A stretch of DNA of 64,000 nucleotides from Sphingomonadales bacterium (GTDB taxonomy: Bacteria > Pseudomonadota > Alphaproteobacteria > Sphingomonadales > Sphingomonadaceae): positions 8,316-72,315 of the forward strand of contig JANXSN010000037.1 of assembly GCA_025352685.1 (NCBI GenBank), in the 5' to 3' direction. Both the position numbers and the translations under genes were made by a program. The notes beneath the pieces are model-generated. The model searched no databases. It had not been told where the DNA came from and saw only the letters and a program-made list of their open reading frames with translations. Below are positions 14,934 through 54,955 of the stretch, in pieces (position 1 is the first letter of the stretch; every line of letters starts with the position of its first letter).

Positions 14934-17546
<2,613 letters not shown>

Positions 17547-17622: not shown

Positions 17623-18585
17623 ATGCGAAATTTCCAAGCCCCCCCTTGGGTACAGATTGCCACCGTGCTCGCGGTCGTGACGATTGCTGCGCCGGGCGGA
17701 TTAGCCCTCGCGCAATCGCGCAGTAGTTTTCGCGTCGAGGAGACCGGGCGCAGTTTCCTCCGGCTTGACGAGGCGGTAAAATCGATTGGCGAAGGCAGCG
17801 GGACGATCACGGTAGCGCCGGGACGCTATCCCGACTGCGCGGTGTTTGCCGGTGCAACGCTCAGCATCCGCGCTGCGCAGCCCTCGACCGCAATTTTTGA
17901 CGGCGGGACGTGCGAGGGAAAGGCAACGCTGGTCCTGCGCGGAGCGAACGCCGCCGTGGATGGCCTGGTCTTTCGGGGCATCAAGGTTTCTGACCATAAT
18001 GGTGCCGGCATACGCCTCGAAACGGGCAATCTGACCGTAACGCGTGCGACTTTCCTTGACAGTGAGCAGGGCATTCTAACGGGCGACGATCCGTCCGGGT
18101 CGATCAGCATTGACCATTCAACCTTCGCCGGGCTGGGCGGTTGCCCGGACGGCATGTGTTCGCACTCGATCTATGTCGGCAATTACGGATCCCTGAGCAT
18201 CAGCCGGGTCCGGTTCGAGCGGGGAACCGGCGGTCATTACGCCAAGAGCCGCGCTGCGCGGATAGCCATAACAGATTCGAGTTTCGATGACTCTCAGGGT
18301 CACGATACCAACTACGAGATTGACCTACCGAACGGGGCAATCGGGCGGATCGCGGGCAATGTCTTTGTCATGGGCAAGTCGAAAGAAAACCATAGCGCAA
18401 TTATCGCCGTTGCCGCCGAACGGCGCGAAAATCCGTCAGCAGGGCTCATCGTTGAGAGCAACGACGCGTCAATCGCGCCGGGCGCTGGCTACACGACGAC
18501 CTTCGTTGCGGATTGGAGCCATGAGCGCCTGAAAATTGGGCCAAACAAGATCGGTGCTGGGATAAAACTATCCGACAGCCGTTAG
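17623..18585 (+). CDS. secreted right-handed parallel beta-helix repeat protein
   Basis: Signal peptide (AAPGGLALAQS). Repeated G-x-I/V-x-L/I turns (NGAGIRLETGNLTV, SEQGILTGDD, HSIYVGNYGSL). Confidence 0.6.
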   Translation: MRNFQAPPWVQIATVLAVVTIAAPGGLALAQSRSSFRVEETGRSFLRLDEAVKSIGEGSGTITVAPGRYPDCAVFAGATLSIRAAQPSTAIFDGGTCEGKATLVLRGANAAVDGLVFRGIKVSDHNGAGIRLETGNLTVTRATFLDSEQGILTGDDPSGSISIDHSTFAGLGGCPDGMCSHSIYVGNYGSLSISRVRFERGTGGHYAKSRAARIAITDSSFDDSQGHDTNYEIDLPNGAIGRIAGNVFVMGKSKENHSAIIAVAAERRENPSAGLIVESNDASIAPGAGYTTTFVADWSHERLKIGPNKIGAGIKLSDSR

Positions 18586-24195: not shown

Positions 24196-25323
24196 GTGCT
24201 CAAACGTGACGCCAAAGGCAGTGACCGCAGTCCCCAACAAGGCGATTCCTATCTCATGGCTTCCCCCACAGCCGATCTGCCGCCGTTATCGGGCCTCGCG
24301 CCCGAAAGTTACGACGGCGGCGAGCAATCGGACGCCTTGCGCGAAAGCAACGCGCGTTTTGAAATCTTGTGCGATGCCATGCCACAAATGGTTTGGTCGA
24401 CACTGCCCGATGGTTTTCACGATTACTTCAACGCGCGCTGGTATGAATTCACGGGCGTTCCGGTCGGATCGACTGATGGCGAAGGCTGGCACGCAATGTT
24501 CCATGCCGATGATCGGGATCGAGCCTGGTCGCGATGGCAACACAGCCTCCTGACGGGCGAACCTTATGAAATCGAATATCGACTACGCCATCATAGCGGC
24601 GCCTACCGCTGGACACTTGGCCGAGCCTTGCCTGTGCGCGACCGTGCAGGACGTATCACGCGCTGGATCGGTACTTGCACCGACATTGACAATCAAAAGC
24701 GCGTCGGCGAGCATAATGAGATACTCAGCCGCGAGCTCAGTCATCGGATCAAAAATATCTTTGCCGTGATCAGCGGGCTCATCGCGCTTTCGGCGCGCCG
24801 GGATCCTCAAGCGAAGCCTTTTGCTGATGAACTTCTCGGAAGAATAACTGCGCTCGGCCGCGCCCATGAGTTCGTGCGGCCGCATAGCCAGGATTCACAG
24901 CCAACGATGGGCGACGTCACGCTCAAGAAAATGTTATTCGACTTGATGGGTGCCTATCCGGCCCGTGACAACGGGCGGCTGCGGATCGATGGCGACGACA
25001 TTGGTCTCGACGACCGCGGCGCAACGTCCATTGCATTGGTTTTCCATGAGCTTGCAACAAACGCTGCGAAATACGGTGCCTTCTCAGCGCACGACGGCCA
25101 GGTTCGTATCGAAATCACACGAGTTGGTCAGAGCGTCACCATTTTGTGGACGGAGCGCGGAGGACCGGTTGTCCCAGGCGTTCCTGACCATCAAGGATTT
25201 GGTACGCGCCTCACGGACATGAGTGTGGTTCAGCAGCTCGGCGGTACGATCGATAGAGCATGGCTTTCCGAAGGGCTCAAGGTCACAATTCAAGTGCAGA
25301 TGGACCGGTTTGCGCGGCGCTAG
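24196..25323 (+). CDS. PAS domain sensor histidine kinase, HWE/HisKA_2 type
   Basis: PAS block (MPQMVWSTLPDGFHDYFNARWYEFTG...YRWTLGRALPVRD). H-box ELSHRIKNIFAVISGLI. ATPase domain HELATNAAKYGA. Start may be the ATG at 24256. Confidence 0.85.
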   Translation: MLKRDAKGSDRSPQQGDSYLMASPTADLPPLSGLAPESYDGGEQSDALRESNARFEILCDAMPQMVWSTLPDGFHDYFNARWYEFTGVPVGSTDGEGWHAMFHADDRDRAWSRWQHSLLTGEPYEIEYRLRHHSGAYRWTLGRALPVRDRAGRITRWIGTCTDIDNQKRVGEHNEILSRELSHRIKNIFAVISGLIALSARRDPQAKPFADELLGRITALGRAHEFVRPHSQDSQPTMGDVTLKKMLFDLMGAYPARDNGRLRIDGDDIGLDDRGATSIALVFHELATNAAKYGAFSAHDGQVRIEITRVGQSVTILWTERGGPVVPGVPDHQGFGTRLTDMSVVQQLGGTIDRAWLSEGLKVTIQVQMDRFARR

Positions 25324-25367: not shown

Positions 25368-25781
25368 TTATGCCGCTTGTTGGAACAGCCGCAGCGAACG
25401 CGGTGGCACCGAAGCAACGTCCCCGGCTCTCCACCGCAGCGCATAATCTACTGCCTGGCGTACCGAGGCCTCGTCGGTGGGCTTGGTCAACACGCCGATT
25501 GCTCCCGAAATCCTTTCGCCCAGGATACGGGGGTTTGCGGTCACAAAGAGCACAGCAACGTCGCCGCGTGCGCAGAGGCGTTTGCCCATTTCCGAGCCCG
25601 TGAGCCCATCACGTAAATTCGGATCGACCAGCGCCAGGTCAATTGGCTGCATTGCGCCGGTGAGCGCCGTTTCTATGCCGGCTGCAATACCGACGACCTC
25701 ATGAACGAGTTCGCCGAGCACGGCTTCGATCTCGAAGGCAGCGAGCACTTCATCTTCGACGATCAGGATCTTAGCAGGCAT
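25368..25781 (-). CDS. single-domain response regulator (receiver only)
   Basis: MPAKILIVEDE..., DLALVDPNL (phospho-Asp), VLTKP. Convergent with the kinase gene. Confidence 0.8.
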   Translation of the reverse strand: MPAKILIVEDEVLAAFEIEAVLGELVHEVVGIAAGIETALTGAMQPIDLALVDPNLRDGLTGSEMGKRLCARGDVAVLFVTANPRILGERISGAIGVLTKPTDEASVRQAVDYALRWRAGDVASVPPRSLRLFQQAA

Positions 25782-25876
25782 CACGATTTCGATTGGTGAC
25801 AGATGCGTCGGTACCAAGCGTGGAACGCGGATCCCTCGCTTGCCGACCGAGGGACATTTTCAACGATGCGCGCGGA

Positions 25877-26814: not shown

Positions 26815-28053
26815 ATGGCCACCGTATCAAACCTGTCCGTTGCTTCAGTCACTCTCGAACATATCCGTGCCGCGGCAGCACGAATTGCAGGAAAGGTGGT
26901 GCGCACGCCGACGTTGAAGAGCATTACGCTGTCGGCGATGACCGGGGCCGAGGTCTGGCTGAAGTTCGAAAACCTCCAGTTTACCGCGGCTTACAAGGAA
27001 CGGGGTGCGCTCAATAAATTGCTGCTGATGCCCGATACGGCGCGGGCAAAAGGCGTTATCGCGGCGTCTGCGGGTAATCATGCGCAAGGACTGGCCTATC
27101 ACGCGGCGCGCTTGGGCATTCCCGTCACCATTGTCATGCCGCGTTCGACCCCCACCATCAAAATCACTCAGACACAAGGCCACGGGGCCGAAGTCCTCCT
27201 GCACGGTGAGACGTTCGATGCCGCCTATGCGCATGCCCGTGAGTTGGAGACGGCGCGCGACCTCACATTCGTCCATCCCTTCGACGACGCGGAAATCATT
27301 GCAGGGCAGGGTACGATCGCGCTTGAAATGCTCGAGGACGCGCCAGGGATCGACATGCTGGCGATCCCGATCGGCGGCGGCGGCTTGCTGTCGGGTGTCG
27401 GTACGGCGGCCAAGGCGCTGAAACCCGGTCTTCAGGTCGTCGGTGTACAGGCCGAGCTTTATCCATCCATGTACGCGTTGCTCAACGACCTCGATATGCC
27501 AGCCGAGGGCGACACGCTGGCCGAGGGCATTGCAGTCAAGCATCCGGGAATGTTGACCCGTGAGATCGTCCGGGCGATTGCTGACGATATCGTGCTCGTG
27601 GCTGAGCGGCATCTCGAAAAGTCAGTCGCGCTTTTGCTCGAAATTGAAAAGACAGTGGTCGAAGGCGCAGGCGCAGCGGGGCTCGCCGCGCTGCTTGCGC
27701 ATCCCGAACGCTTCAAAGGCAAGACGGTCGGCATCGTGCTGTGCGGCGGCAACATCGACACGCGGTTACTCGCAAACGTGCTGCTGCGCGATCTGGCGCG
27801 TTCCGGACGACTGGCGCGCCTTCGCGTCCGCCTGCAGGACCGACCGGGCGCATTGTTCAACGTCGCGCGCATTTTTGACGAGCAATCGGTCAACATCATC
27901 GAAATCTATCATCAGCGCGTCTTCACGACGTTGCCCGCCAAGGGGTTGATTACCGATATCGAGTGCGAAACGCGGGGCCCGGAACATCTCGATCGCCTTG
28001 TCGCGGCGTTGACCGAATGGGGATATGAAGTTTCGAAGGTGGAACTTGCCTGA
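26815..28053 (+). CDS. ilvA: threonine ammonia-lyase (threonine dehydratase) with one C-terminal ACT-like domain
   Basis: ENLQFTAAYKERGA PLP-Lys block, SAGNHAQG, IPIGGGGLLSG. Confidence 0.88.
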   Translation: MATVSNLSVASVTLEHIRAAAARIAGKVVRTPTLKSITLSAMTGAEVWLKFENLQFTAAYKERGALNKLLLMPDTARAKGVIAASAGNHAQGLAYHAARLGIPVTIVMPRSTPTIKITQTQGHGAEVLLHGETFDAAYAHARELETARDLTFVHPFDDAEIIAGQGTIALEMLEDAPGIDMLAIPIGGGGLLSGVGTAAKALKPGLQVVGVQAELYPSMYALLNDLDMPAEGDTLAEGIAVKHPGMLTREIVRAIADDIVLVAERHLEKSVALLLEIEKTVVEGAGAAGLAALLAHPERFKGKTVGIVLCGGNIDTRLLANVLLRDLARSGRLARLRVRLQDRPGALFNVARIFDEQSVNIIEIYHQRVFTTLPAKGLITDIECETRGPEHLDRLVAALTEWGYEVSKVELA

Positions 28054-28066
28054 TTAACCCTCTTTA

Positions 28067-28915
28067 ATGGTAAATCCGCTTTTAATGCGACGCGTGGCGA
28101 CGCATAACCACTGGATCGTGACAGCTCCTTTCCGTTTTCCCCGTTTCTTCGTAACCACGCCATCGCCGTGCCCCTATCTGCCGGGCCGGACGGAGCGGAA
28201 GGTATTTACCGAGCTGGTTGGACCTGACGCGGTGGAGTTGAACGAGGCGCTGTCGCGCATCGGATTCCGGCGAAGTCAGGGTGTAGCCTATCGGCCTTCG
28301 TGTCTCGATTGTGGGGCATGCGTGTCCGTCCGGGTCCTCACGCGCGAGTTCACACCGAGTGCAACACAGCGCAAACTTTTGAAACGTCACGCCGACCTTG
28401 AAGTCACTGCCTGCCGGCCGTGGTCAACGCAAGAGCAGTACGACCTGATGCGGCGCTACCTTGATTCGCGCCACGCCAGCGGCGGAATGGCTGGCATGGA
28501 CGAAGTCGACTTCGCTGACATGATCGAGCATTCGGCGGTTGATACCCAAGTGGTCGAATATCGCGAGCCATCGCTTGGTGGACGACCCGGCAAGCTCGTC
28601 GGCGCATGCATCACCGACCGTCAGGGTGACGGTGTCTCGATGATCTACAGCTTTTTTGCCTCGGAAGACGAGGGCCGACCTGGCCTCGGTACCTATATTA
28701 TCCTCGACCATATCGCACGCGCGGCGAAGGCGGATTTGAGTTTTGTTTACCTCGGCTACTGGGTCGCGGGATCAAAGCGCATGGAATATAAGGCTCGGTT
28801 CCAGCCGATGGAGCGCCTTGGCCCTGCAGGTTGGCGGCGGATGACAGCTGTCGAGGTCACACAATCGTTGAAGGGGGAAGGGTTGCCCGGCGCACCCGAC
28901 GGACGCAAGTTCTAG
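28067..28915 (+). CDS. bpt: arginyltransferase-family N-degron aminoacyl-transferase (Bpt)
   Basis: [21 protein letters not shown] and [22 protein letters not shown] blocks. Start at 28067 or the ATG at 28085. Confidence 0.85.
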
Positions 28916-29667
28916 TCGCTTGTTTTCGTCATAAACGGCGGATCGGGAATCGCCATTCGACTTTCGTTCATCATTCGGCCCCAGCTGGCCGATAATTGGT
29001 TGAAATACGGATCGTCTTCCGAGAGCCGTATGCGAACGACGTCGCGGCTCGCGTCGGTCGGGATCGCGACCAGATCGATTGGTCGACCGACGGACAGGTT
29101 TGATCGCATCGTTGAATCGAACGAGATCAGCGCGACCTTGACCGCTTCGTCTAATCCGGACTCAAACGTGAGCGTGCGGTCTAGGATGGGCTTGCCATAT
29201 TTAAGTTCGCCGATCTGGAGAAACGGCGCGTCGGGCGCGCATTCAATAAAATTGCCCTCGGCGTAGATCTGAAACAGCATCAAGGGCCCGTCGGCAATCC
29301 GTCCACCGACAAGCACCGACGCACTGGCGTTTATCCTCGTCCCTTCGAGGGTGATGCCGATCGCGCGCTTGGCTGTGGTAAGGGCTTCGCCAACTAGCTG
29401 CGCGACACGAAACATTGTCGGTTGCGTCGCGACTGTGCGAGTGACGCCAGAGTCGTCGAGACACGGCATGCCTTCTTCGAGCATGGAGAGCATCGACTGG
29501 GTGACCGATAGACTGCCAGCCGTACACACAAAGATCAGGTGCCCGTCCGTCTGGGCCAGGGGGTGAAGCTTTTTGTAAATCGATACGTTGTCGACCCCCG
29601 CATTGGTCCGGGTGTCGGCGAGGAGCACCAAGCCGGCTTGGACGAGGATGCCCACGCAATAGGTCAT
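28912..29667 (-). CDS. proteasome-type Ntn-hydrolase (Anbu-like peptidase)
   Basis: 251 aa starting [24 protein letters not shown], with Thr directly after Met. Last gene of the ATP-grasp/alpha-E/transglutaminase operon. ATGA overlap with the upstream gene. Confidence 0.8.
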
Positions 29668-30479
29668 TGCTGCTGTCCTCCAGCTTCATCGACACGGACG
29701 TCGACGTCGAGTTCTTCAATGCCGCCGCCGACACGCGCTCCCGACACGGGTGTACAGTCGTACGCGTCGAGCCCGACGGCCACTCGGACATAGCTTTCAT
29801 CGGGACTGAAACCCGAACTCGGGTCAAGACCGACCCAGCCCAGGCGGTCGATGTGAACCTCAGCCCAATAATGGGCCGAGCAGCGGTATCCACGATTGGG
29901 GCCATGCAGGCTGTGGCCCGAGACGATGCGCGCTGGACAGCCACTTGCGCGGGCTACGGCAACCAAAAGGTGTGCCGCGTCGCGGGTGGTGCCATGACCG
30001 CTTTCAAGGATTTCGCCGGGCGTGCGTCCAACGGGGCCGCGTCCGGCGCCAATTTTGATCGCACCCCCGACCGATGTGTTGAGCGCATGGATGCGCTCGA
30101 GCCAGTCGCTGCCGCGCATGACGTGCGCAAAATCGCGGGCTGCGTCGCAGACTTTCGTTGAAGGCGTCGTTCGGGTGAAATAGAGCGGCGGCAGCGGTTC
30201 GTGTGCGCCCTTGACAACGCCCGCTTGATCCTCGGTCAGCACTTCGCCCCGCACCGTCAGCTCCAATGCGTCAAGAGGTCCGTCGAGATATAGCATCGTT
30301 GTGGGATTGCCATATCCGTCGAGGCCAGTGCGCAGTCGAGCGTCGCAATCGACGTCGATACGCCAGTCGATGACGGTCTGTGCGGCGTAATCGCTTGGCG
30401 TAACGCGCAACAGCTGCACGACGCGCGCCTGCGGGACGCTGAAGCGATAGCGCGTATGATGGTCGATACTCAGACGCAT
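29664..30479 (-). CDS. transglutaminase-like family protein
   Basis: N-terminal MRLSIDHHTRYRFSVP (Bact_transglu_N-like). Core blocks GCPARIVSGH, SAHYWAEV, GWVGLDPS. The nucleophile block reads GHGTTRDAAH. Confidence 0.8.
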   Translation of the reverse strand: MRLSIDHHTRYRFSVPQARVVQLLRVTPSDYAAQTVIDWRIDVDCDARLRTGLDGYGNPTTMLYLDGPLDALELTVRGEVLTEDQAGVVKGAHEPLPPLYFTRTTPSTKVCDAARDFAHVMRGSDWLERIHALNTSVGGAIKIGAGRGPVGRTPGEILESGHGTTRDAAHLLVAVARASGCPARIVSGHSLHGPNRGYRCSAHYWAEVHIDRLGWVGLDPSSGFSPDESYVRVAVGLDAYDCTPVSGARVGGGIEELDVDVRVDEAGGQQQ

Positions 30480-30480
30480 G

Positions 30481-31416
30481 TCACAAGAACCTGAACTGTT
30501 TGGATATCGCCTGGTCGAGCGCCGCGTTCTCCTCGATGAAGCTCTCGACGTATTGATGAAGCCCGCCCTTGATTACATTATCAATCCGCGTTTCGCCAAG
30601 TCGGGCATGGCGCAGGCGCGCAAGCCGGTCGGCTTCGCCCTGGAATCCCGTTTGTTTCCCAAGTGCATTGAGGTGCAGCACCACTTCCTCGGCGCTGGCG
30701 GCCAGTGAGCGCGGGAGTTCGCGGCGCAAGATCAGGAGCTCGGCAACCGAACGCGCCTCGAGCCCCTCGCGATAAAGCCAGCGATAAGCGTTCACCGCTG
30801 CAAGCGTCTGGAGGATTGTCGTCCACTGGTCACGGTCGACCGCACCGCCGACACGTTCGCCTTCAGGCAGAAGAATGTGATATTTGACGTCGATCAGACG
30901 TGCGGTATTGTCCGCACGTTCGATCGTGGCTCCCAGGCGGATGAACCAAGACGCCGGGTTGCGGAGCATCCGTCCGATCGCGCCCTCGAACCCGCGGGTT
31001 TCGCTTTGAGCCTGCTCCATCAAAGCGAGCGTTGCCTGCGTGTCACCCGGACTCGTCCGCCCGTTGAACAGCAGCCACGCACTGTTGATCGTCGACCAGG
31101 CATCACGGCTGAGTGCAGTGCGCACAGCCTTTGCATTGCCGCGCGCAAAACCGAGACACGAGACGACCGAGCCGGCGTGGGCGTTTGACAAGGTAAGGAA
31201 CCGCGTGACGTTGCGCGGTGTTAGCTTTTCGCCGGTTTTGGCAAAGGCTTCTTCGGCCTCGATTACAGCAAGCGCGCTCGCCCACGCCGCTTCACCCGCT
31301 GGTCGTGATGAAAGCGCATCGAGACGAACCGTTGCTTCAACAAGGCGTGCCGTAAACTCGGCACGCTCGACATACCGCCCCATCCAATAGAGCGAGGCGG
31401 CGGTACGCGAGAGCAT
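30481..31416 (-). CDS. alpha-E domain-containing protein
   Basis: MLSRTAASLYWMGRYVERAEFTARL, typical of the alpha-E (DUF403) family. Abuts the ATP-grasp gene stop. Confidence 0.8.
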   Translation of the reverse strand: MLSRTAASLYWMGRYVERAEFTARLVEATVRLDALSSRPAGEAAWASALAVIEAEEAFAKTGEKLTPRNVTRFLTLSNAHAGSVVSCLGFARGNAKAVRTALSRDAWSTINSAWLLFNGRTSPGDTQATLALMEQAQSETRGFEGAIGRMLRNPASWFIRLGATIERADNTARLIDVKYHILLPEGERVGGAVDRDQWTTILQTLAAVNAYRWLYREGLEARSVAELLILRRELPRSLAASAEEVVLHLNALGKQTGFQGEADRLARLRHARLGETRIDNVIKGGLHQYVESFIEENAALDQAISKQFRFL

Positions 31417-32868
31417 TTAGCCTTCGTCCCCGATCTCGCCGTCGTCCATCAGGACAAAGCTGTCCTTGGTCCCGCCGCCTTGGCTCGAGTTCACGACCAG
31501 CGATCCTTCGCGCAGTGCTACCCGCGTGAGGCCGCCAGGAATGACTTTTACGCCGCTTGCCCCCGAAAGGACGAATGGGCGGAAATCGACATGACGCGGT
31601 GCAACGCCGCTTTCGACGAGTGTCGGTACGGTTGAGAGCGCCAGCGTTGGCTGGGCGATATAACGGTGCGGCTCGGCGACCAGCGCGGCGCGAAAATCTT
31701 CGATCTCTCTCTTTGACGCTGTTGGCCCGACCAGCATGCCATAGCCACCGGAACCATCCACCAGTTTCACCACAAGGTCGGAAAGGTTATCGAGCACATA
31801 CTTCAGCGCTTGCGGCTCACGGCACCGCCAGGTCTCGACGATTGGTAGTATCGGTTTTCCTCCTGCGTAAAACTTCACGATTTCAGGCATATAGCTATAG
31901 ATTGCCTTATCGTCGGCAATGCCTGTGCCGGGCGCGTTGACGAGGGCGACCTTGCCTGCGCGGTACGCTGCGATCAGGCCGGGAACTCCGAGCATGGAGT
32001 CGGGTCTGAACACCAGAGGATCGATATAGTCGTCATCGATACGACGGTAGATCACGTCTACGCGCACGCGTCCGGTAATCGTTCGCATCCACACGATGTC
32101 ATCGTCGACCTGAAGATCTGCGGCTTCAACAAGTTCGATGCCGAGCGAATCTGCCAGAAAACTGTGCTCGTAATACGCCGAGTTGAATCGACCTGGCGTC
32201 AGGATCACGCAAACCGGATCGCTGCCCGCACTTGCAGGAGCAACCGAGCGCAGCGTCTGGAGAAGCGCATCTCCATAGCTGTCGACGTGCTGAACCCGAT
32301 ACTGGCGGAACAGCTCAGGACACAAGCGGATCATCGCCTCGCGGTTTTCGAGCATGTAACTGACGCCCGACGGAGTCCGCGCGTTGTCCTCCAGCACCCA
32401 GAAATCGCCCGGGCCGGTGCGGACAAGGTCGATTCCGCAGATGTGCGACCATATGCCGTGGGGAGGGCGAGACCCCACAATCTCGCCGCGGAATTGCGGG
32501 TTGGCGAGGATCAGTTCGGGCGGCAGAATATTTTCGTCGAGGATCCGGCGTTTCCCATAAACATCGTCGAGGAACGCATTGATGGCCTCTACGCGTTGGA
32601 CAATGCCAACGCTCAGCATGTCCCATTCTGTTTTGGTGAACATTCGCGGGACGATATCGAACGGGATAATGCGCTCGGCGGCATCATCGTCTCCGTAGAC
32701 GGCAAAGGTAATGCCAAGTTGTCGAAAGGTTGCCTCGGCTGATTTCTGGCGACGGTCGAGTTCAGCTCGCGGCGTGTTGGAAAGCCAGTCAGCGAGGCCT
32801 GCAAACTCGGGACGCGCACTTTGGTCGCTGCTCGATCCCCACAGTTCGTCGAAAGGCTTTTGCTTCAT
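31417..32868 (-). CDS. circularly permuted type 2 ATP-grasp protein
   Basis: About 483 aa from the ATG at 32868 (MKQKPFDELW). IPFDIVPRMFTKTEWDMLSVGIVQRVEAINAFLDDVYG and VVKLVDGSGGYGMLVG blocks. Confidence 0.85.
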   Translation of the reverse strand: MKQKPFDELWGSSSDQSARPEFAGLADWLSNTPRAELDRRQKSAEATFRQLGITFAVYGDDDAAERIIPFDIVPRMFTKTEWDMLSVGIVQRVEAINAFLDDVYGKRRILDENILPPELILANPQFRGEIVGSRPPHGIWSHICGIDLVRTGPGDFWVLEDNARTPSGVSYMLENREAMIRLCPELFRQYRVQHVDSYGDALLQTLRSVAPASAGSDPVCVILTPGRFNSAYYEHSFLADSLGIELVEAADLQVDDDIVWMRTITGRVRVDVIYRRIDDDYIDPLVFRPDSMLGVPGLIAAYRAGKVALVNAPGTGIADDKAIYSYMPEIVKFYAGGKPILPIVETWRCREPQALKYVLDNLSDLVVKLVDGSGGYGMLVGPTASKREIEDFRAALVAEPHRYIAQPTLALSTVPTLVESGVAPRHVDFRPFVLSGASGVKVIPGGLTRVALREGSLVVNSSQGGGTKDSFVLMDDGEIGDEG

Positions 32869-32981
32869 TGCGTTGAGACTGCGCGGCTTTGCGGCAGTGC
32901 ACAAGGGGGAAGCGAAAGGGGGAACAGACTTGGGAATGCTGCGTTCTTTCGACCAGTTGCCCCCTAGACGAAACGAACACA

Positions 32982-33677
32982 GTGCATCGCAGCCCGTTTA
33001 CCGATGACCACCCCTTTATTGACAAGCTGGAGCGCTTTATCGCCAACCCTCAATTCCCATGTGTGGGGGCGAAGTCTGCGCTGGCGAAGCGTCAAATCAA
33101 GGTGGTCATAGCGCGGTCAATCACGAGTGCGTGGAACGATTTGACGATTCACGAGGCGCTGATGAAATTTGCTGGTGACTATCATCGCAATCGGAAGCTG
33201 TTCCAGTCGCTCGCCGTCATTTTCGAAGGGCCGCGAACGATCACCGAAGCCTGTTTTGAGGAATCGATGTGGAACCGGATCCAGTCGATCAGTGACAAGG
33301 ATGTGTGGCTGGGCCAGAAATACGACAAAAGGGTGTCGCCAGACCCCACAAATCCCCACTTCTCGCTGAGCTTCGCCGGAGAAGCATTTTTTGTGGTAGG
33401 ATTGCATCCTCACGCCAGCCGAAAGGCGCGGCGCTTCGTGGCGCCGACGATGATCTTTAATCTTCACGACCAGTTCGAACGCCTGCGTTCGGAAGGCCGT
33501 TACGAGAAGCTGCGTGGCAATATCCAGGTCCGCGACGAACACTTTTCGGGGTCCGTCAATCCAATGTTGTCGCGACACGGCGAACTCTCGGAGGCACGGC
33601 AATATTCAGGTCGCACCGTCGGTGAAGAATGGGGCTGCCCATTCGCTTATCAGGGGACGATGCGGGATGCTGCTTGA
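32982..33677 (+). CDS. YqcI/YcgG family protein
   Basis: FIANPQFPCVGAKSAL..., HFSLSFAGEAFFVVGLHPHASRKARRF, as I recall for PF08892. Start is uncertain (GTG 32982 preferred over 32889, which would overlap the divergent gene). Confidence 0.7.
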   Translation: MHRSPFTDDHPFIDKLERFIANPQFPCVGAKSALAKRQIKVVIARSITSAWNDLTIHEALMKFAGDYHRNRKLFQSLAVIFEGPRTITEACFEESMWNRIQSISDKDVWLGQKYDKRVSPDPTNPHFSLSFAGEAFFVVGLHPHASRKARRFVAPTMIFNLHDQFERLRSEGRYEKLRGNIQVRDEHFSGSVNPMLSRHGELSEARQYSGRTVGEEWGCPFAYQGTMRDAA

Positions 33678-34272
33678 ACGAACGCGGGCCGTCACCCGAG
33701 GGCGTATCCAACCGCGGTCGGGCGTGGCGTTTACGATGATGGCGGGACAGACGCTTACTGTCACCGACCCGATGGGGCGTCAGGTAGCCGACCTACTGGC
33801 CTTCAACACTACCGATGTTGGGGAAGCGATCTCATCCGGGCGCACGCTTGATTATGCGAGTAAAATCTATCTCACGACGGGTGATACGCTCTGGTCGAAC
33901 CGTTCGAGCCCGATGCTGGATATTGTCGAGGATATGGTCGGGCGCCACGATTTCTTGCTGACGCCGTGTTCCAAGGATACGTTCCGGATCATCTACGGTC
34001 ACAAGGAGCCGCATCGGGGTTGCTTCGGCAATCTGGCCGCCGCGCTCGCTCCCTACGGCGTGGCTGATGATGCCATCCCGGTTGCCTTTAACTGCTTCAT
34101 GAATGTGCCGATCGAGTCGGATGGGAGCTTTGCGGTCCTGCCTCCACTTAGTCGTGCAGGGGATTACATTCGTTTCGAGGCAAAAATGGACCTGATCATC
34201 GGCCTCACGGCGTGTTCAGCGCTCCAATCGAACGGCGGCAGCTTCAAGCCGATCGACTGGACGCTCGATTAG
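33667..34272 (+). CDS. DUF1989 domain-containing protein (urea-carboxylase-associated family)
   Basis: The ATG at 33667 overlaps the upstream gene by 11 nt. GQTLTVTDPMGRQVADLLAF, GRHDFLLTPCS, NCFMNVP blocks. Confidence 0.7.
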   Translation: MLLERTRAVTRGRIQPRSGVAFTMMAGQTLTVTDPMGRQVADLLAFNTTDVGEAISSGRTLDYASKIYLTTGDTLWSNRSSPMLDIVEDMVGRHDFLLTPCSKDTFRIIYGHKEPHRGCFGNLAAALAPYGVADDAIPVAFNCFMNVPIESDGSFAVLPPLSRAGDYIRFEAKMDLIIGLTACSALQSNGGSFKPIDWTLD

Positions 34273-34450: not shown

Positions 34451-35152
34451 CTAGGCCACCTCGGCGATCAGCATGTCTTCCGCGTCGCGCAGCACATAGC
34501 CCCGGCCCCAGACAGTCTCGATGTAGTTGTCGCCGCTGCAGGCCAGGCTGAGCTTCTTGCGCAGCTTGCAGATGAACACGTCAATGATCTTGAGCTCGGG
34601 CTCGTCCATGCCACCGTACAGGTGGTTGAGGAACATTTCCTTCGTCAGCGTTGTTCCTTTGCGGAGCGAAAGCAGCTCCAGCATCGCGTATTCCTTGCCA
34701 GTCAGGTGAACGCGCGAACCGTCGACTTCAACGGTCTTGGCGTCGAGATTTACGGCAAGCTTGCCGGTGCGGATGACCGACTGACTGTGTCCCTTCGAAC
34801 GCCTGACGACGGCGTGAATGCGGGCGACGAGTTCGTCGCGATGAAAAGGCTTGGTGACGTAATCGTCGGCACCAAAGCCGAACGAGCGCACTTTGGAATC
34901 CATCTCGCTAATGCCCGAGAGGATGAGGACGGGTGTTTGCACCTTGGCGACGCGCAACTTCTTCAGCACATCATAGCCGTGCATATCGGGCAAGTTGAGG
35001 TCAAGGCAGATGATATCGTAATCGTAGAGCTTGCCGAGGTCCAAGCCCTCTTCGCCCAAGTCCGTGGTGTAGACGTTGAAACCCTCTGACGAGAGCATCA
35101 GCTCGATGGCCTTGGCCGTGGTCGGCTCGTCCTCGATCAACAACACGCGCAT
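34451..35152 (-). CDS. ctrA: cell-cycle response regulator CtrA (OmpR family)
   Basis: [67 protein letters not shown]... is very close to known CtrA proteins. C-terminal wHTH. Confidence 0.9.
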
Positions 35153-35246
35153 GCGACGCCCCTTTTCTCGCCTGGATCCCACGCGGCCTGTCCAATCGGA
35201 CCTACCGCACCACTTAATTAACCAAATACCGAATGAAGGGAAAAGG

Positions 35247-35261
35247 TTAATTCGCAGTTAA
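35247..35261. promoter_or_regulatory. CtrA box TTAA-N7-TTAA upstream of ctrA
   Basis: On the ctrA strand it reads TTAACTGCGAATTAAC, about 95-110 nt upstream of the ctrA ATG. It overlaps the stop codon of the LysR gene. A second TTAATTAA lies at 35214-35221. Confidence 0.5.
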
Positions 35262-36181
35262 TTGGCGGAATCGCGCGAGTCGCTCGATCTGGGACTGGCG
35301 AGGGCTTCGACGAGGAAGGCAATCAGTGCTTCGACGCGCAGTGCCCGCAGGCGTCCGGGTGGTGTAACGAGGTGAAGCGCAGACGAGGGGGCATGCCAGT
35401 CGGGTAGGACGCGAACGATGGCGCCGCGACGCCGGGCGTCGACACCGATAAAGTCGGGAAGACTGACGATCCCATGCCCCGCAATGGCGGCTGGAATCAT
35501 CACATCGGCGTTGTTGGCGCGCACGCGCCCGTTCAAATGCACGACGGCTTCCTCATTGCCGCGGGTCAGACGCAGTGTCTGCTGGTTGGCTGCATAGCTG
35601 TAGGAAAATAGCTGATGATGGCTGAGCTCAAGAGGATGGGATGGATCGCCGTGTCGCTCAATATATGCCGGAGACGCATAGAGGCCGACCTCGACCGGGC
35701 GTAACGTGCGGGCGATTAGATTTGAATCGCCGAGTGCTCCAATCCGGAGTGCGACATCGAAGCCATCGCCGACCAGATCGACTCTGGCATCGCTTAGATG
35801 GAGGTCGACCGAGATGTCGGGATAAACGTCGAGAAAGCCGGCAACGAGCGGCCCCACGTGCGAGAGGCCAAAGCTCATCGGGACGGCGAGCCGGACCGTA
35901 CCCGAGGCGCGCCCCGCTTCCTCGCGCGCGGATTCCTCGGCGGCCGTCGCACCCGCAAGGATCGCTTGTGCCCGCTCGACGAGTGCTGCGCCGCTCTCCG
36001 TCAGTGCGAGGCGCCGTGAGGTTCGATGGAACAGGGAAACCCCCAGCAGGGCTTCAAGGCGGGTGATTGCTTTCGAAACCGTTGCTTTTGACAATCCAAG
36101 CGTTGTTGCGGCGCCGCTGAACGAGCGCTGCTCCGCAACGGTCGCGAATATGGCCCAGCCTTGAAAATCCGGAAGCGACAT
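35258..36181 (-). CDS. LysR family transcriptional regulator
   Basis: FATVAEQRSFSGAATTLGLSKATVSKAITRLE HTH. Divergent from the pirin gene. Confidence 0.88.
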   Translation of the reverse strand: MSLPDFQGWAIFATVAEQRSFSGAATTLGLSKATVSKAITRLEALLGVSLFHRTSRRLALTESGAALVERAQAILAGATAAEESAREEAGRASGTVRLAVPMSFGLSHVGPLVAGFLDVYPDISVDLHLSDARVDLVGDGFDVALRIGALGDSNLIARTLRPVEVGLYASPAYIERHGDPSHPLELSHHQLFSYSYAANQQTLRLTRGNEEAVVHLNGRVRANNADVMIPAAIAGHGIVSLPDFIGVDARRRGAIVRVLPDWHAPSSALHLVTPPGRLRALRVEALIAFLVEALASPRSSDSRDSAN

Positions 36182-36185
36182 TTTG

Positions 36186-36209
36186 GAAACAGTGCCTTTC
36201 GATTGTTTC
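36186..36209. promoter_or_regulatory. inverted repeat GAAACA-N12-TGTTTC in the lysR/pirin divergent region
   Basis: Perfect 6-bp arms immediately upstream of the lysR ATG. Compatible with a LysR-type T-N11-A site. Confidence 0.35.
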
Positions 36210-36253
36210 TATTTACCAAGCGATGCTGAACCCTAAATACGAACCGATCAACT

Positions 36254-37009
36254 TTGACGGAAGCAAGTTCGATGACTGCTCATTCCATTCGCGATGCGAA
36301 CCTCATTGACGTCCGCCGGTTTACGTCGCTCGGCGCGGCCAACCACGGCTGGCTCGACGCGCACCACCATTTTTCGTTCGGCTCGTATCGTGATCTCGGA
36401 CGGATGGGTTGGGGCAGCATCCTGGTGTGGAACGACGATAAAATCGCCCCAAATACTGGATTCCCGCCGCACCCGCACAGCGACATGGAAATCATAACAT
36501 ACGTCCGTTCGGGGGCTATCACTCACGAAGATTCGATGGGTAACAAGGGGCGAACCGAGGCTGGTGATGTTCAGGTCATGAGCGCCGCGTCGGGCATCCG
36601 CCATGCCGAATATAACGTTGAGGCCGACGCGACGACGCTGTTCCAGATCTGGATCGAGCCGACCTCGCGCGGCGGCGCACCGGCTTGGGGCGCCAAACCC
36701 TTTCCCAAGGGCGATCGCGCGGGCCGCTGGTCAGTGCTGGCCAGCGGGTTCGCAGATGCGTCCCCGGAGGATCGCGATGCGCTGCCGATCCGCACCGATG
36801 CGCGGGTGTTGGGTGCGACGTTGAAGGCTGGAGACGTGCTCACGCACGAAGTTGGCGCCGGGCGTCATGCCTATTTGGTGCCCGCGCTCGGGCGGCTCGA
36901 TCTCGACGGCACGACCGTCAATGCTCGCGACGGCGTGGCGCTGGGCGCCGGCAGCTATACAATCCGTGCTCTCGAAGAGGCCGAAATCGTCCTCGTCGAC
37001 GCAGCTTGA
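36254..37009 (+). CDS. pirin family protein
   Basis: HGWLDAHHHFSFG and FPPHPHSDMEIITYV cupin metal-binding blocks. Start at 36254 or 36272. Confidence 0.88.
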   Translation: MTEASSMTAHSIRDANLIDVRRFTSLGAANHGWLDAHHHFSFGSYRDLGRMGWGSILVWNDDKIAPNTGFPPHPHSDMEIITYVRSGAITHEDSMGNKGRTEAGDVQVMSAASGIRHAEYNVEADATTLFQIWIEPTSRGGAPAWGAKPFPKGDRAGRWSVLASGFADASPEDRDALPIRTDARVLGATLKAGDVLTHEVGAGRHAYLVPALGRLDLDGTTVNARDGVALGAGSYTIRALEEAEIVLVDAA

Positions 37010-39390: not shown

Positions 39391-40353
39391 ATGGCAAGGC
39401 TTGCAGTTGCTGGAGTTCTACTCGCGCTGGCATGCGCACCGGGGCCGGCCCTGTCACAGACCGACTCGAGGATCGGCGCACCCCCAATGCCGCCGATGGC
39501 AGGAGTGTCGGGCGCATCGATGGCCAATTCCACGATTGAGGAAACGCTACGGCGCGGCGCGGCACCCGCTGTCATGCAGAGCGGCCATGCTGCGCGCGGG
39601 CCGGCTCCGGCTGGCGAGCGCTGGGCGCACGCCGAGGGCGGACGGGACGCTTACCGTCAGCCAAGCTATGGCTACATGCTGCCGTATCATTGGGCGTCTG
39701 CGCCGTATTTTATCGCAGACTTCGGCCTGTTTGGCCTGCCGCGTCCGGGGGCGGGCTTCGGGTGGTCGCGCTATTACGACGATGCCGTGCTGACCGACCA
39801 ATACGGGCGTGTCTATGACTGGCGCGGCGATGTTGACTGGAGCCGCGACCCACGCTGGGCGTCTGAGGACTATGCAGATAGCGATGGCGATCGCGACGAT
39901 CGTCGCCCGCGCCACAACGACGGCGTTGCCGGTGCCGTTGTCGGCGGACTCGTCGGGGGCCTCACGGGCAATATCATCGGAGGTCGTGGTAACCGGCTGG
40001 CAGGAACATTGATCGGGGGCGGCGTGGGCGCGCTCGCAGGCCAGGCGATCGACAAATCGTCGTCGTACCGCCGCGACGGCCGGGATTATGATTACGGGCG
40101 GCGGGACGATCGTCGACATGATTATTGGGACGGTCGTCCGCTACGTCCGCATTGGCGCGATGGCTACGCGGACAGCGGTTATGGATACGGCTGGATGGAC
40201 GGACCCTCGGTTACGACCGTCACCGTGACATCGAGTGCACCAGTCATGACCAAGACCGTCCGCTACGTTACTGAATATGTCAGCTTGCCAGCACGGCACA
40301 CCAAATATGTGAAGCGTACCAAATACGTTCATCGCTGCGGTTGTGGTAGCTGA
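39391..40353 (+). CDS. secreted RcnB-like / glycine-zipper protein
   Basis: Signal peptide MARLAVAGVLLALACAPGPALSQ. GLPRPGAGFGWSRYYDDAVLTDQYGRVYD (RcnB-like). GAVVGGLVGGLTGNIIGG...GGGVGALAGQ glycine zipper. The upstream ORF extension to 38938 is rejected. Confidence 0.6.
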   Translation: MARLAVAGVLLALACAPGPALSQTDSRIGAPPMPPMAGVSGASMANSTIEETLRRGAAPAVMQSGHAARGPAPAGERWAHAEGGRDAYRQPSYGYMLPYHWASAPYFIADFGLFGLPRPGAGFGWSRYYDDAVLTDQYGRVYDWRGDVDWSRDPRWASEDYADSDGDRDDRRPRHNDGVAGAVVGGLVGGLTGNIIGGRGNRLAGTLIGGGVGALAGQAIDKSSSYRRDGRDYDYGRRDDRRHDYWDGRPLRPHWRDGYADSGYGYGWMDGPSVTTVTVTSSAPVMTKTVRYVTEYVSLPARHTKYVKRTKYVHRCGCGS

Positions 40354-52547: not shown

Positions 52548-52666
52548 ATCAGTCCCTCCTGCTTTACGTTTGCGTAAGCGGTAGCAACCCCGTGCCAGGC
52601 CTGCAACGCGTTTCGTGCGTTGTAATATTGTTGCGCGGGCCGCATGGTACCTCCGAGGAGAACCGC

Positions 52667-53935: not shown

Positions 53936-53938
53936 TCG

Positions 53939-54952: not shown

Positions 54953-54955
54953 ACA

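What the first reader, a model, noticed from the sequence alone, without database searches (positions are those of the whole stretch)
28912..32868. Translationally coupled cpATP-grasp / alpha-E / transglutaminase-like / Anbu (proteasome homologue) operon: a putative peptide-ligation and proteolysis system with no known substrate
Four minus-strand genes have junctions of 0-4 nt. The stop at 31417 abuts the start at 31416, there is a 1-nt gap at 30480, and an ATGA overlap at 29664-29667. All four products are recognisable by eye. The first is a circularly permuted type-2 ATP-grasp. The second is an alpha-E protein (MLSRTAASLYWMGRYVERAE). The third is a transglutaminase-like protein. The fourth is a 251-aa proteasome-beta-fold Ntn-hydrolase starting MTYCVG, with Thr directly after Met and so no propeptide, as described for Anbu. 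Comparative genomics has noted this quartet (Anbu: Valas and Bourne 2008; ATP-grasp amidoligase survey: Iyer et al. 2009), and Anbu crystal structures exist. To my knowledge, the molecule ligated by the ATP-grasp, the Anbu substrates and the physiological role remain unknown. This is the best candidate in the window for an uncharacterised system.
Basis: partly seen in the sequence, partly recalled or inferred. Interest (0 to 1): 0.7.

Follow-up and report, generated by a model that had tools for sequence, protein, structure and literature searches.

The report
Known Anbu operon with dead transglutaminase
This is a real but ordinary copy of the four-gene Anbu (proteasome-relative) operon described in 2008-2009, whose function is still unknown; the one unreported detail is that its transglutaminase-like protein has lost its catalytic cysteine.

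Summary
Four minus-strand genes (32868-28912) have junctions of 0, +1 and -4 nt. They encode a circularly permuted ATP-grasp, an Alpha-E protein, a transglutaminase-like protein (TGL) and Anbu. All Pfam models hit strongly. Anbu matches five solved Anbu structures, keeps Thr1/Asp17/Lys32 and has the Anbu-1 type S1 pocket. No propeptide is possible.

The same gene order occurs in 59 of 80 related loci from other species. It is the published "Anbu operon" (Valas & Bourne 2008; Fuchs 2017; Piasecka 2018). This is therefore a new member of a known kind in an uncultured sphingomonad. I found no paper up to 2026 that assigns a function.

The TGL has Thr165 where the catalytic Cys should be (GTTRD instead of GVCQD). 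All 120 closest homologues also lack the Cys, yet His and Asp are kept and the gene is under purifying selection. Among Anbu-linked TGLs, 15 of 58 readable in other species lack the Cys, and six or seven operons lack a TGL altogether. Anbu's active site is invariant in 79 of 79 sequences. Here the TGL is probably a non-catalytic partner and Anbu the only hydrolase. Interest is modest.

The parts
31417..32868 (-). Circularly permuted ATP-grasp amidoligase (483 aa, COG2308 type), first gene of the operon
   Evidence: Pfam CP_ATPgrasp_2 E 3.1e-160, full length 1-374/374, and CP_ATPgrasp_1 E 1.1e-139. PDB 3n6x E 1.8e-185 over residues 2-475. The ORF extends to a TTG at 32904, but homologues and 3n6x align from the ATG at 32868.
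30481..31416 (-). Alpha-E protein (311 aa, COG2307 type). It has two ER motifs, YVERAE at residues 15-20 and IERADN at 165-170.
   Evidence: Pfam Alpha-E E 1.3e-78. R14, Y15, R18, E166 and R167 are invariant in 81 homologues. The AlphaFold2 model is all-helical with pLDDT 79. There is no solved relative by sequence or by fold (best Foldseek E 0.22).
29664..30479 (-). Transglutaminase-like protein (271 aa, COG1305 type) that lacks the catalytic cysteine; probable pseudoenzyme
   Evidence: Pfam Bact_transglu_N plus Transglut_core. AlphaFold2 model pLDDT 87.7. Best fold match is 3isr, the C. hutchinsonii 'putative cysteine protease', E 1e-18, TM 0.72-0.74. The motif is GTTRDAAH where the canonical motif is GVCQDxxH.
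29985..29987 (-). Codon for Thr165 of the TGL, at the column of the catalytic Cys
   Evidence: In alignments with canonical Anbu-linked TGLs, T165 falls under the C of G-V-C-Q-D. In the 120 closest homologues plus the window protein this column reads V85, T22, A6, S5, M2, P1 and never C, while His203 and Asp219 are kept in 121 of 121.
28912..29667 (-). Anbu, a proteasome beta-fold Ntn hydrolase of the Anbu-1 subtype (251 aa)
   Evidence: PDB 5loy E 2.4e-68, 5nyj E 2.8e-60, 5lox E 6.5e-55, 5nyw E 2e-54. T1, D17 and K32 are invariant. S1 pocket residues are T20, Y30, T48, L52 and T55, as described for Anbu-1 in PMC5666114.
29662..29664 (-). Codon for the Thr1 nucleophile of Anbu, directly after the ATG of the ATGA overlap
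   Evidence: Sequence read. The in-frame stop 21 nt upstream leaves no room for a propeptide.
32869..32936 (.). Short region between the ATP-grasp start and the divergent YqcI/YcgG gene; presumed promoter region, not verified
   Evidence: Sequence read. The gene caller's YqcI start in the identical metagenome contig L001 leaves 67 nt of intergenic sequence. No sigma-70-like or sigma-54-like consensus was found here.

Best explanation
Identity (high confidence). This is an orthologue of the canonical four-gene Anbu-1 operon, in the order ATP-grasp, Alpha-E, transglutaminase-like protein, Anbu. It sits in ordinary chromosomal DNA of an uncultured member of the Sphingomonadales.

Mechanism (inferred, roughly 0.35 as a whole).
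- The circularly permuted ATP-grasp, working with its constant partner Alpha-E, uses ATP to make an acyl-phosphate and forms an amide bond. It adds an amino acid or short peptide to a carboxylate on a protein or peptide that is not encoded in the operon.
- Anbu, with its free N-terminal Thr1 exposed after Met removal, is the hydrolase that acts on that ligated product or on the tagged substrate.
- In this lineage the transglutaminase-like protein cannot do cysteine chemistry because Thr165 replaces the Cys. It most likely survives as a non-catalytic binding or adaptor subunit, made in fixed proportion with Anbu through the ATGA overlap.
- Taken together with other genomes, the ATP-grasp/Alpha-E/Anbu trio looks like the constant part. 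The TGL looks like a second hydrolase module that becomes dispensable where Anbu is present.

What is shown here: gene identities, active-site residues, synteny and purifying selection. What is inferred: the ligation chemistry, the substrate, the physical partnership and the physiological role. Published data point to nitrogen limitation as the inducing condition.
For: Identity:
- Pfam, PDB and fold hits.
- The catalytic triad and Anbu-1 S1 pocket are invariant in the window protein plus 78 relatives.
- The gene order is conserved in 59 of 80 loci across Alphaproteobacteria and some Beta- and Gammaproteobacteria.
- GC content of the operon (0.595-0.61) equals that of the window, and the neighbours are housekeeping genes.
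- The literature describes the same four genes in the same order (PMC6376114, PMC5666114, PMC3235984).

Ligase step:
- The Y. bercovieri operon ATP-grasp releases phosphate from ATP (PMC6376114).
- The window protein scores 620 bits against 3n6x.

TGL as non-catalytic:
- Thr replaces the Cys here, and no Cys occurs at that column in the 120 closest homologues, while His and Asp are kept 100%.
- dN/dS is 0.11-0.21 for the TGL, so it is still under selection.
- The canonical motif G-V-C-Q-D is very tight (V in 68 of 75, Q in 72 of 75). The motif in Cys-less sequences is degenerate.

TGL as the dispensable module:
- 15 of 58 Anbu-linked TGLs readable in other species lack the Cys, in several separate lineages.
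- Five clear operons are ATP-grasp, Alpha-E, Anbu with no TGL: L042, L060, L072, L073 and L081. L077 (cut off by the contig end) and possibly L085 also lack it.
- In the Sphingomonas MAG L007 the Anbu-linked TGL is Cys-less (GSVRD). A second, Anbu-less ATP-grasp/Alpha-E/TGL cluster in the same locus keeps GVCQDF with His and Asp.

No precursor or tag gene fits in the 0, 1 and -4 nt junctions.
Against: - No Anbu has shown peptidase or amidase activity in vitro.
- No stable complex among the four operon proteins was detected (PMC6376114; also 'not shown' in PMC5666114).
- There is no unfoldase in the operon.
- Fuchs et al. consider the peptide-synthesis idea less likely than plain protein degradation (PMC5666114).
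- Retention of His203 and Asp219 in every Cys-less relative is not explained by a purely structural role.
- The claim that the TGL is dispensable where Anbu is present rests on Anbu-anchored loci plus one paired example. I could not sample Anbu-less operons broadly.
- dS is saturated (pS about 0.65-0.7), so the dN/dS values are rough.
- No promoter, no sigma-54 site and no terminator were identified, so the transcription unit is not demonstrated.
Confidence: 0.85

Rival explanations
1. The system is a small-molecule amide cycle rather than a protein-tagging system. The ATP-grasp makes a low-molecular-weight amide (glutathionylspermidine-like, a gamma-glutamyl amine or a short peptide metabolite), and Anbu is the Ntn amidase that hydrolyses it. 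This would resemble the synthetase/amidase pair of glutathionylspermidine synthetase.
For: The only solved relative of the ATP-grasp was deposited as 'putative glutathionylspermidine synthase' (3n6x). Anbu is inactive on standard proteasome peptide substrates, and many Ntn hydrolases cleave non-peptide amides (PMC6376114). No tag or precursor gene is present in the operon. A papain-fold amidase (the TGL) being replaced by another amidase (Anbu) fits the repeated loss of the Cys and of the TGL gene.
Against: Anbu forms a dodecameric split ring with many active sites lining a cavity. It has a conserved, narrow, proteasome-like S1 pocket and reacts with peptide-based inhibitors, all of which argue for polypeptide substrates (PMC5666114). 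The S1 pocket is invariant in 79 sequences. The '3n6x' name is a structural-genomics label, not an assay result.
Confidence: 0.25
2. Anbu is a general, stand-alone protease for bulk protein turnover under nitrogen starvation, and the three upstream genes are only co-regulated. The ATP-grasp and Alpha-E would have an independent function.
For: Fuchs et al. favour a degradation role. The operon is the most up-regulated gene set in nitrogen-limited P. putida (PMC3235984 note added in proof; PMC5666114). Anbu occurs as an orphan gene, with nothing related within several kb, in about 9 of the 80 loci: L010, L012, L015, L017, L024, L033, L035, L056 and L074. The ATP-grasp/Alpha-E/TGL trio also exists without Anbu (L007 second cluster; PMC3235984).
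Against: The gene order is fixed and often coupled in 59 of 80 loci across distant taxa. That is hard to explain by co-regulation alone. No peptidase activity has been found in vitro (PMC6376114).
Confidence: 0.2
3. The Cys-less TGL is still an enzyme. It would use a different nucleophile, Thr164 or Thr165 (Ser/Thr at position 164 in most of the clade), with the retained His203 and Asp219 as a Ser/Thr-His-Asp triad.
For: His203 and Asp219 are kept in 121 of 121 sequences. Arg166 is kept in 120 of 121, and position 164 is Ser, Thr or Asn in 120 of 121 of the window's clade. The gene is under purifying selection.
Against: The nucleophile column itself is Val in 85 of 121 sequences of the clade. 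Across 65 Cys-less cluster representatives the flanking positions are degenerate: at -1, T18, S11, D8, G7, N5, A5; at +1, R19, A12 and others. That is the pattern of relaxed constraint, not of a new catalytic site. A nucleophile shifted by one residue at a helix N-terminus would not sit opposite the His.
Confidence: 0.1
4. The operon is functionally tied to the N-degron pathway through the adjacent bpt gene (aspartate/glutamate leucyltransferase), whose stop codon overlaps the Anbu stop.
For: A gene with ATE_N and ATE_C domains converges on Anbu. The two stop codons share the palindrome CTAG at 28912-28915. bpt also lies within 8 kb of Anbu in other Sphingomonadales loci: L006, L010, L014 and L026.
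Against: bpt is absent from the flanks of all non-sphingomonad loci, which make up most of the 80. Within the sphingomonads its distance and orientation vary. This is best explained as inherited local synteny.
Confidence: 0.04

Closest known systems
Anbu operon of Pseudomonas aeruginosa (Anbu = PA1733, TGL = PA1732), Yersinia bercovieri and Hyphomicrobium sp. (Valas & Bourne 2008; Iyer et al. 2009; Fuchs et al. 2017; Piasecka et al. 2018; Vielberg et al. 2018)
   Same: The same four gene families occur in the same order. Anbu has Thr1 directly after Met, Asp17 and Lys32. The S1 pocket is of the Anbu-1 type and the C-terminal extension aligns to residue 245. Identity to solved Anbus is 40-49%.
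   Different: The junctions are tighter (0, +1 and -4 nt against medians of 15, 26 and 73). The TGL has Thr instead of the catalytic Cys, whereas most Anbu-linked TGLs read GVCQD. No sigma-54-like promoter was found, although the Pseudomonas operon is reported to respond to nitrogen limitation.
Three-gene ATP-grasp / Alpha-E / transglutaminase-like peptidase system without Anbu (Iyer et al. 2009; Zhang & Aravind 2012, PMC3495828)
   Same: It has the same ligase pair and the same TGL architecture (Bact_transglu_N plus Transglut_core). The published prediction is that the ATP-grasp adds peptide tags and the TGL removes them.
   Different: Here a fourth gene, Anbu, is present and the TGL cannot act as a cysteine peptidase. 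The one Anbu-less cluster I could inspect (L007 13060-16226) keeps the full Cys-His-Asp triad.
Pupylation-proteasome system of Actinobacteria (PafA, Dop, Pup, 20S)
   Same: It pairs an ATP-dependent amide ligase and an amidase with a proteasome-family Thr protease. It serves as a working analogy for 'tag, then hydrolyse'.
   Different: PafA and Dop have the glutamine-synthetase-like fold, not the ATP-grasp fold. A tag gene (pup) and an AAA+ unfoldase are present there and absent here. Anbu is an open split ring, not a closed barrel (PMC5666114).
Glutathionylspermidine synthetase/amidase (GspS)
   Same: An ATP-grasp-type amide synthetase is coupled to a papain-like-fold amidase that reverses the reaction. 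The nearest solved structure to the window's ATP-grasp carries this label (3n6x).
   Different: In GspS the two activities are fused in one protein and act on a small molecule. Here they are separate genes, there is an extra Ntn hydrolase, and no substrate is known.

Membership tests
Anbu (ancestral beta subunit), subtype Anbu-1 | Proteasome beta / Ntn-hydrolase fold with specific sequence similarity to characterised Anbu proteins | tested here: met
   phmmer against the PDB gives 5loy E 2.4e-68, 5nyj E 2.8e-60, 5nyf E 1e-59, 5lox E 6.5e-55 and 5nyw E 2e-54 over nearly full length. Pfam Proteasome E 5.5e-7, above the gathering score.
Anbu (ancestral beta subunit), subtype Anbu-1 | Catalytic Thr directly after the initiator Met, with no propeptide | tested here: met
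   The protein starts MTYCVG. An in-frame stop lies 21 nt upstream with no alternative start codon. Thr1 is present in 79 of 79 relatives.
Anbu (ancestral beta subunit), subtype Anbu-1 | Asp17 and Lys32(33) of the proteasome-type active site | tested here: met
   Both are invariant in the alignment with four solved Anbus and in 79 of 79 sequences.
Anbu (ancestral beta subunit), subtype Anbu-1 | Amphiphilic Anbu-1 S1 pocket (residues 20, 30, 48, 52, 55) rather than the basic Anbu-2 pocket | tested here: met
   The window has T20, Y30, T48, L52 and T55. Relatives have T, F/Y, T/S, L and T/S. The pocket is described in PMC5666114. The best PDB hit is the Anbu-1 consensus design 5loy.
Anbu (ancestral beta subunit), subtype Anbu-1 | C-terminal helical extension (H5) and dodecameric split-ring assembly | not testable with these tools
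   The C-terminal segment aligns to 5loy and 5lox as far as residue 245, which is consistent with H5. The oligomeric state needs experiment.
Anbu operon (COG2308-COG2307-COG1305-Anbu) | Four genes in the order ATP-grasp, Alpha-E, transglutaminase-like, Anbu on one strand | tested here: met
   Shown. The same order occurs in 59 of 80 related loci. It is described as the predominant arrangement in PMC6376114.
Anbu operon (COG2308-COG2307-COG1305-Anbu) | Single transcription unit; induction on nitrogen limitation | not testable with these tools
   Junctions of 0, +1 and -4 nt suggest co-transcription. No promoter, sigma-54 motif or terminator was found. There are no expression data.
Circularly permuted ATP-grasp, type 2 (PF14403 / PF04174) | Full-length match to the family model above the curated cut-off | tested here: met
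   533.6 bits against a cut-off of 32, covering model positions 1-374 of 374. 620 bits to 3n6x.
Circularly permuted ATP-grasp, type 2 (PF14403 / PF04174) | ATP-dependent carboxylate-amine ligase activity | not testable with these tools
   Only phosphate release from ATP has been reported, for the Y. bercovieri orthologue (PMC6376114).
Alpha-E (PF04168) | Match to the family model and the conserved ER motif | tested here: met
   265 bits against a cut-off of 20.8. The ER motif at residues 17-18 (Glu17 nearly invariant, Arg18 invariant) and the one at 166-167 (both invariant) are kept in 81 homologues.
Transglutaminase-like superfamily (fold) | Bact_transglu_N plus Transglut_core architecture and papain-like core fold | tested here: met
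   Both Pfam models score above their cut-offs. The AlphaFold2 model (pLDDT 87.7) matches 3isr at TM 0.72-0.74 and TgpA at E 5e-7.
Catalytically active transglutaminase / TGL cysteine peptidase | Cys-His-Asp catalytic triad | tested here: not met
   Cys is replaced by Thr165, while His203 and Asp219 are present. No Cys occurs at this column in the 120 closest homologues. Canonical relatives read G-V-C-Q-D at the same columns. The protein should therefore not be filed as an active transglutaminase or cysteine peptidase.
Known anti-phage defence systems (PADLOC) | Match of any of the four proteins to a defence-system model | tested here: not met
   No hit at E <= 0.01.

The most novel reading that the evidence does not exclude
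In operons that carry Anbu, the Thr-nucleophile hydrolase has taken over the 'eraser/processing' role that the transglutaminase-like cysteine peptidase plays in the more widespread three-gene ATP-grasp/Alpha-E/TGL system. The TGL is thereby freed to become a pseudoenzyme, as here with Cys to Thr165 while His and Asp are kept and the gene stays under purifying selection, or to be lost altogether. If true, the TGL and Anbu act on the same ATP-grasp product. The Cys-less TGL would then be a natural substrate-trapping adaptor that could be used to pull down the long-sought substrate of the Anbu system.
Probability: 0.3. Interest if true: 0.55.

Novelty: new member of a known kind. Interest (0 to 1): 0.3.

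Why it matters
The Anbu operon is a genuine open problem. It is a widespread, ancient proteasome relative that is always found next to an ATP-dependent amide ligase, and it has no known substrate, product or phenotype after more than 15 years and several crystal structures.

This window does not change that and is not a better entry point than the Pseudomonas or Yersinia operons. Its one useful contribution is comparative. The transglutaminase-like partner repeatedly loses its nucleophile or the whole gene, while Anbu's active site never varies. That constrains models: the TGL's catalysis is not essential to the Anbu-containing system. It also suggests an experiment, using the naturally dead TGL as a binding bait.

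Tried and rejected
- Sigma-54 (-24/-12) motif search, because the Pseudomonas operon responds to nitrogen limitation. There were 34 matches with up to 2 mismatches against 33 expected, and none upstream of 32868.
- Sigma-70 promoter and terminator scan of 28000-34000. Nothing exceeded the shuffled controls, and there is no terminator after Anbu.
- Rfam at gathering thresholds and a tRNA scan of the whole window found nothing.
- A fold search with the Alpha-E model for a mechanistic lead found no significant PDB neighbour (best E 0.22, TM below 0.3).
- PADLOC gave no hits. NCBIfam gave no model for the first three proteins and only a sub-threshold archaeal proteasome-beta hit for Anbu.
- No paralogues of the four genes occur elsewhere in the window.
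- The link to the neighbouring bpt (N-degron) gene is confined to Sphingomonadales, so I rejected it as a functional association.
- Orphan-Anbu and TGL-less loci (L010, L060) showed no recurrent neighbours: amidohydrolase, amidase, TctC and QueC.
- dN/dS: synonymous sites are saturated, so the values only support the statement that the genes are under purifying selection.
- Literature searches for a function published after 2018 found none. The only phenotype was a pleiotropic PA1732 mutant (PMC3197603). Iyer et al. 2009 (PMC3268129) is not held, so its content is cited only through papers that quote it.
- I could not test whether Cys loss is enriched in Anbu-linked TGLs relative to Anbu-less ones.

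Full report
OBSERVATION

The four minus-strand ORFs are exactly where the finding places them:
- 31417-32868, 483 aa from the ATG. The ORF runs on to a TTG at 32904, but homologues and PDB 3n6x align from the ATG.
- 30481-31416, 311 aa.
- 29664-30479, 271 aa.
- 28912-29667, 251 aa.

I read the junctions directly. They are TAA followed at once by ATG, TGA-c-ATG, and GGAGG, nine bases, then ATGA. The gaps are therefore 0, +1 and -4 nt, as claimed.

An in-frame stop lies 21 nt upstream of the Anbu ATG with no start codon between them. The product must begin Met-Thr and cannot carry a propeptide.

IDENTITIES

- Pfam gives CP_ATPgrasp_2 (E 3e-160, full model) and CP_ATPgrasp_1 (E 1e-139), Alpha-E (E 1e-78), Bact_transglu_N plus Transglut_core (E 2.5e-17 and 3e-16) and Proteasome (E 5.5e-7). 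All are above the curated cut-offs.
- The 251-aa protein matches every solved Anbu: 5LOY, 5NYJ, 5NYF, 5LOX and 5NYW, with E from 2e-54 to 2e-68 over almost the full length.
- In an alignment with those sequences, Thr1, Asp17 and Lys32 are invariant.
- In the window protein plus 78 relatives from other species, Thr1, Asp17, Lys32 and the S1 pocket positions (T20, F/Y30, T/S48, L52, T/S55) are all conserved. This is the amphiphilic Anbu-1 pocket described by Fuchs et al., not the basic Anbu-2 pocket (PMC5666114).
- The ATP-grasp scores 620 bits against 3n6x, its only solved relative.
- Alpha-E has no solved relative by sequence. An AlphaFold2 model (pLDDT 79, all-helical) has no fold neighbour in the PDB either (best E 0.22). 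It carries two copies of an ER motif, at residues 17-18 and 166-167. Arg18, Glu166 and Arg167 are invariant and Glu17 is nearly invariant in 81 homologues.

CONTEXT AND CHANCE

I analysed the best 80.
- 59 have ATP-grasp, Alpha-E, TGL and Anbu colinear on one strand.
- Five are clearly ATP-grasp, Alpha-E, Anbu with no TGL (L042, L060, L072, L073, L081). L077, cut off by the contig end, and possibly L085 also lack it.
- L034 has the trio nearby on the other strand.
- About nine are orphan Anbu genes with enough flanking sequence to be sure.
- Median gaps elsewhere are 15, 26 and 73 nt. The window's junctions are the tightest, and the ATGA overlap between TGL and Anbu is confined to its own clade plus L069.

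The operon has the same GC content as the rest of the window. It lies among housekeeping genes: GroEL, a split MetH, SppA, two 2-oxoacid dehydrogenase clusters, threonine dehydratase and bpt. The identical operon and neighbours occur on metagenome contigs, and the closest named relatives are Sphingomonadales. No paralogues of the four genes occur elsewhere in the window.

WHAT IS KNOWN

- This is the published Anbu operon. [quoted passage not shown] See also Valas & Bourne (PMC3235984) and Fuchs et al. (PMC5666114).
- No Anbu has shown peptidase or amidase activity, and no stable complex among the operon proteins was found. The Yersinia ATP-grasp releases phosphate from ATP (PMC6376114).
- P. 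aeruginosa Anbu binds epoxomicin and MG132 (PMC5666114).
- The operon is strongly induced under nitrogen limitation in P. putida (PMC3235984).
[quoted passage not shown] My searches to 2026 found nothing later. The only addition was a pleiotropic PA1732 mutant phenotype (PMC3197603).

- The TGL reads G-H-G-T-T-R-D-A-A-H where canonical relatives read G-x-G-V-C-Q-D-x-x-H. Thr165 sits at the column of the catalytic Cys.
- In the 120 closest homologues (59-90% identity) plus the window protein, that column is Val 85, Thr 22, Ala 6, Ser 5, Met 2, Pro 1 and never Cys. His203 and Asp219 are kept in 121 of 121.
- The AlphaFold2 model is confident (pLDDT 87.7). It matches the C. hutchinsonii "putative cysteine protease" 3isr at TM 0.72-0.74, then TgpA. 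The fold is intact.
- The gene is under purifying selection (dN/dS 0.11-0.21 against L006 and L007, with dS saturated). It is not a decaying pseudogene.
- Of 58 Anbu-linked TGLs I could read in other species, 43 keep the Cys and 15 do not. The losses fall in several separate lineages: Bosea, Xanthobacteraceae, Hydrogenophaga, Methylobacterium oryzihabitans, Falsiroseomonas and others.
- Of the 139 best full-length 50%-identity cluster representatives of this TGL family, 75 have Cys and 64 do not. In the Cys group the motif G-V-C-Q-D is almost invariant. In the non-Cys group the flanking positions are degenerate, yet His and Asp are mostly retained. A rough NJ tree needs at least 15 changes of state.
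- In the Sphingomonas MAG L007 the Anbu-linked TGL is Cys-less (GSVRD). A second, Anbu-less ATP-grasp/Alpha-E/TGL cluster 5 kb away has a TGL with the full GVCQDF, His and Asp.
- I found no mention of this in the held papers. The word "cysteine" does not occur in Valas & Bourne. I could not read Iyer et al. 2009, so I cannot say it was never noted.

MECHANISM

What is shown: gene identities, intact active sites in the ATP-grasp family match and in Anbu, a missing nucleophile in the TGL, conserved order, tight junctions and selection on all four genes.

What is inferred, at about 0.35 overall:
- ATP-grasp with Alpha-E makes an amide bond on a substrate encoded elsewhere. No tag gene fits in the junctions.
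- Anbu's Thr1 hydrolyses that product or the tagged polypeptide.
- The Cys-less TGL is a non-catalytic binding partner.

The comparative pattern has three parts: Anbu's site never varies, the TGL's nucleophile is lost in about a quarter of Anbu-linked copies, and the TGL gene is absent in several operons. This suggests that the TGL and Anbu are overlapping hydrolase modules for the same ligase, and that the TGL's catalysis is dispensable once Anbu is present.

Rivals are a small-molecule synthetase/amidase cycle (0.25), Anbu as an independent bulk protease (0.2), a TGL with an alternative nucleophile (0.1) and a link to the neighbouring bpt gene (0.04).

VERDICT

The feature is real, correctly identified and already known as a type. 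This copy is a new member in an uncultured sphingomonad. A specialist would not be surprised by it, and it does not make the open question more tractable than the existing model operons do. The dead-TGL observation is a modest comparative constraint worth recording. Interest is 0.3.

Noticed in passing
window 28067-28915 (+) and 28912-28915: A bpt-type gene (ATE_N plus ATE_C; N-degron leucyl/arginyl transferase family) converges on Anbu. The two stop codons share the palindrome CTAG, so no terminator can sit between the convergent genes and each transcript must run into the other gene. bpt lies near Anbu only in Sphingomonadales loci (L006, L010, L014, L026).
   Followed up: partly
L007 13060-16226 (minus strand): The same Sphingomonas MAG locus that has a Cys-less TGL next to Anbu also carries a second, Anbu-less ATP-grasp/Alpha-E/TGL cluster (27-34% identity). 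Its TGL keeps the full GVCQDF, His and Asp triad.
   Followed up: partly
L042, L060, L072, L073, L081 (also L077): These operons consist of ATP-grasp, Alpha-E and Anbu with no transglutaminase-like gene between them (Roseomonas and relatives, Terricaulis, a Lysobacterales MAG).
   Followed up: partly
L010, L012, L015, L017, L024, L033, L035, L056, L074: These are orphan Anbu genes with an intact Thr1/Asp17/Lys32 and no ATP-grasp, Alpha-E or TGL within several kb. The neighbours checked in L010 (amidohydrolase, unknowns) show nothing recurrent.
   Followed up: partly
window 32889-33677 (+) and about 33667-34272 (+): YqcI/YcgG-family and DUF1989 genes are transcribed divergently from the operon. 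At most about 68 nt of intergenic sequence is left for two promoters. This pairing is seen only in contigs of the same species (L001, L002).
   Followed up: no
window 13574-14854 (+) and 14934-17546 (+): Methionine synthase appears split into two genes. One carries the homocysteine S-methyltransferase domain alone (426 aa). The other carries Pterin_bind, the B12-binding domains and the activation domain (870 aa). An ArsR-HTH/methyltransferase fusion lies just upstream at 11920-12858.
   Followed up: no
window 24196-25323 (+) and 25368-25817 (-): A PAS/HWE-type histidine kinase and a single-domain response regulator lie three to four genes downstream of the operon. An OmpR-type regulator (34451-35182) and a LysR regulator with a divergent pirin gene (35258-37009) lie upstream. 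None is conserved next to Anbu operons in other taxa.
   Followed up: no
window 281-967, 1338-2441, 2546-3406, 17623-18585, 39547-40119: These are sizeable ORFs with gene-like third-position GC content but no Pfam match at E <= 1e-5.
   Followed up: no
window 1-64000: There is no tRNA gene and no Rfam family at gathering threshold anywhere in the 64 kb.
   Followed up: yes
window 42368-45057 and 52592-56245: There are two separate 2-oxoacid dehydrogenase gene sets: E2 plus E3 (lipoamide dehydrogenase), and E1-alpha, E1-beta and E2 of the branched-chain type.
   Followed up: no
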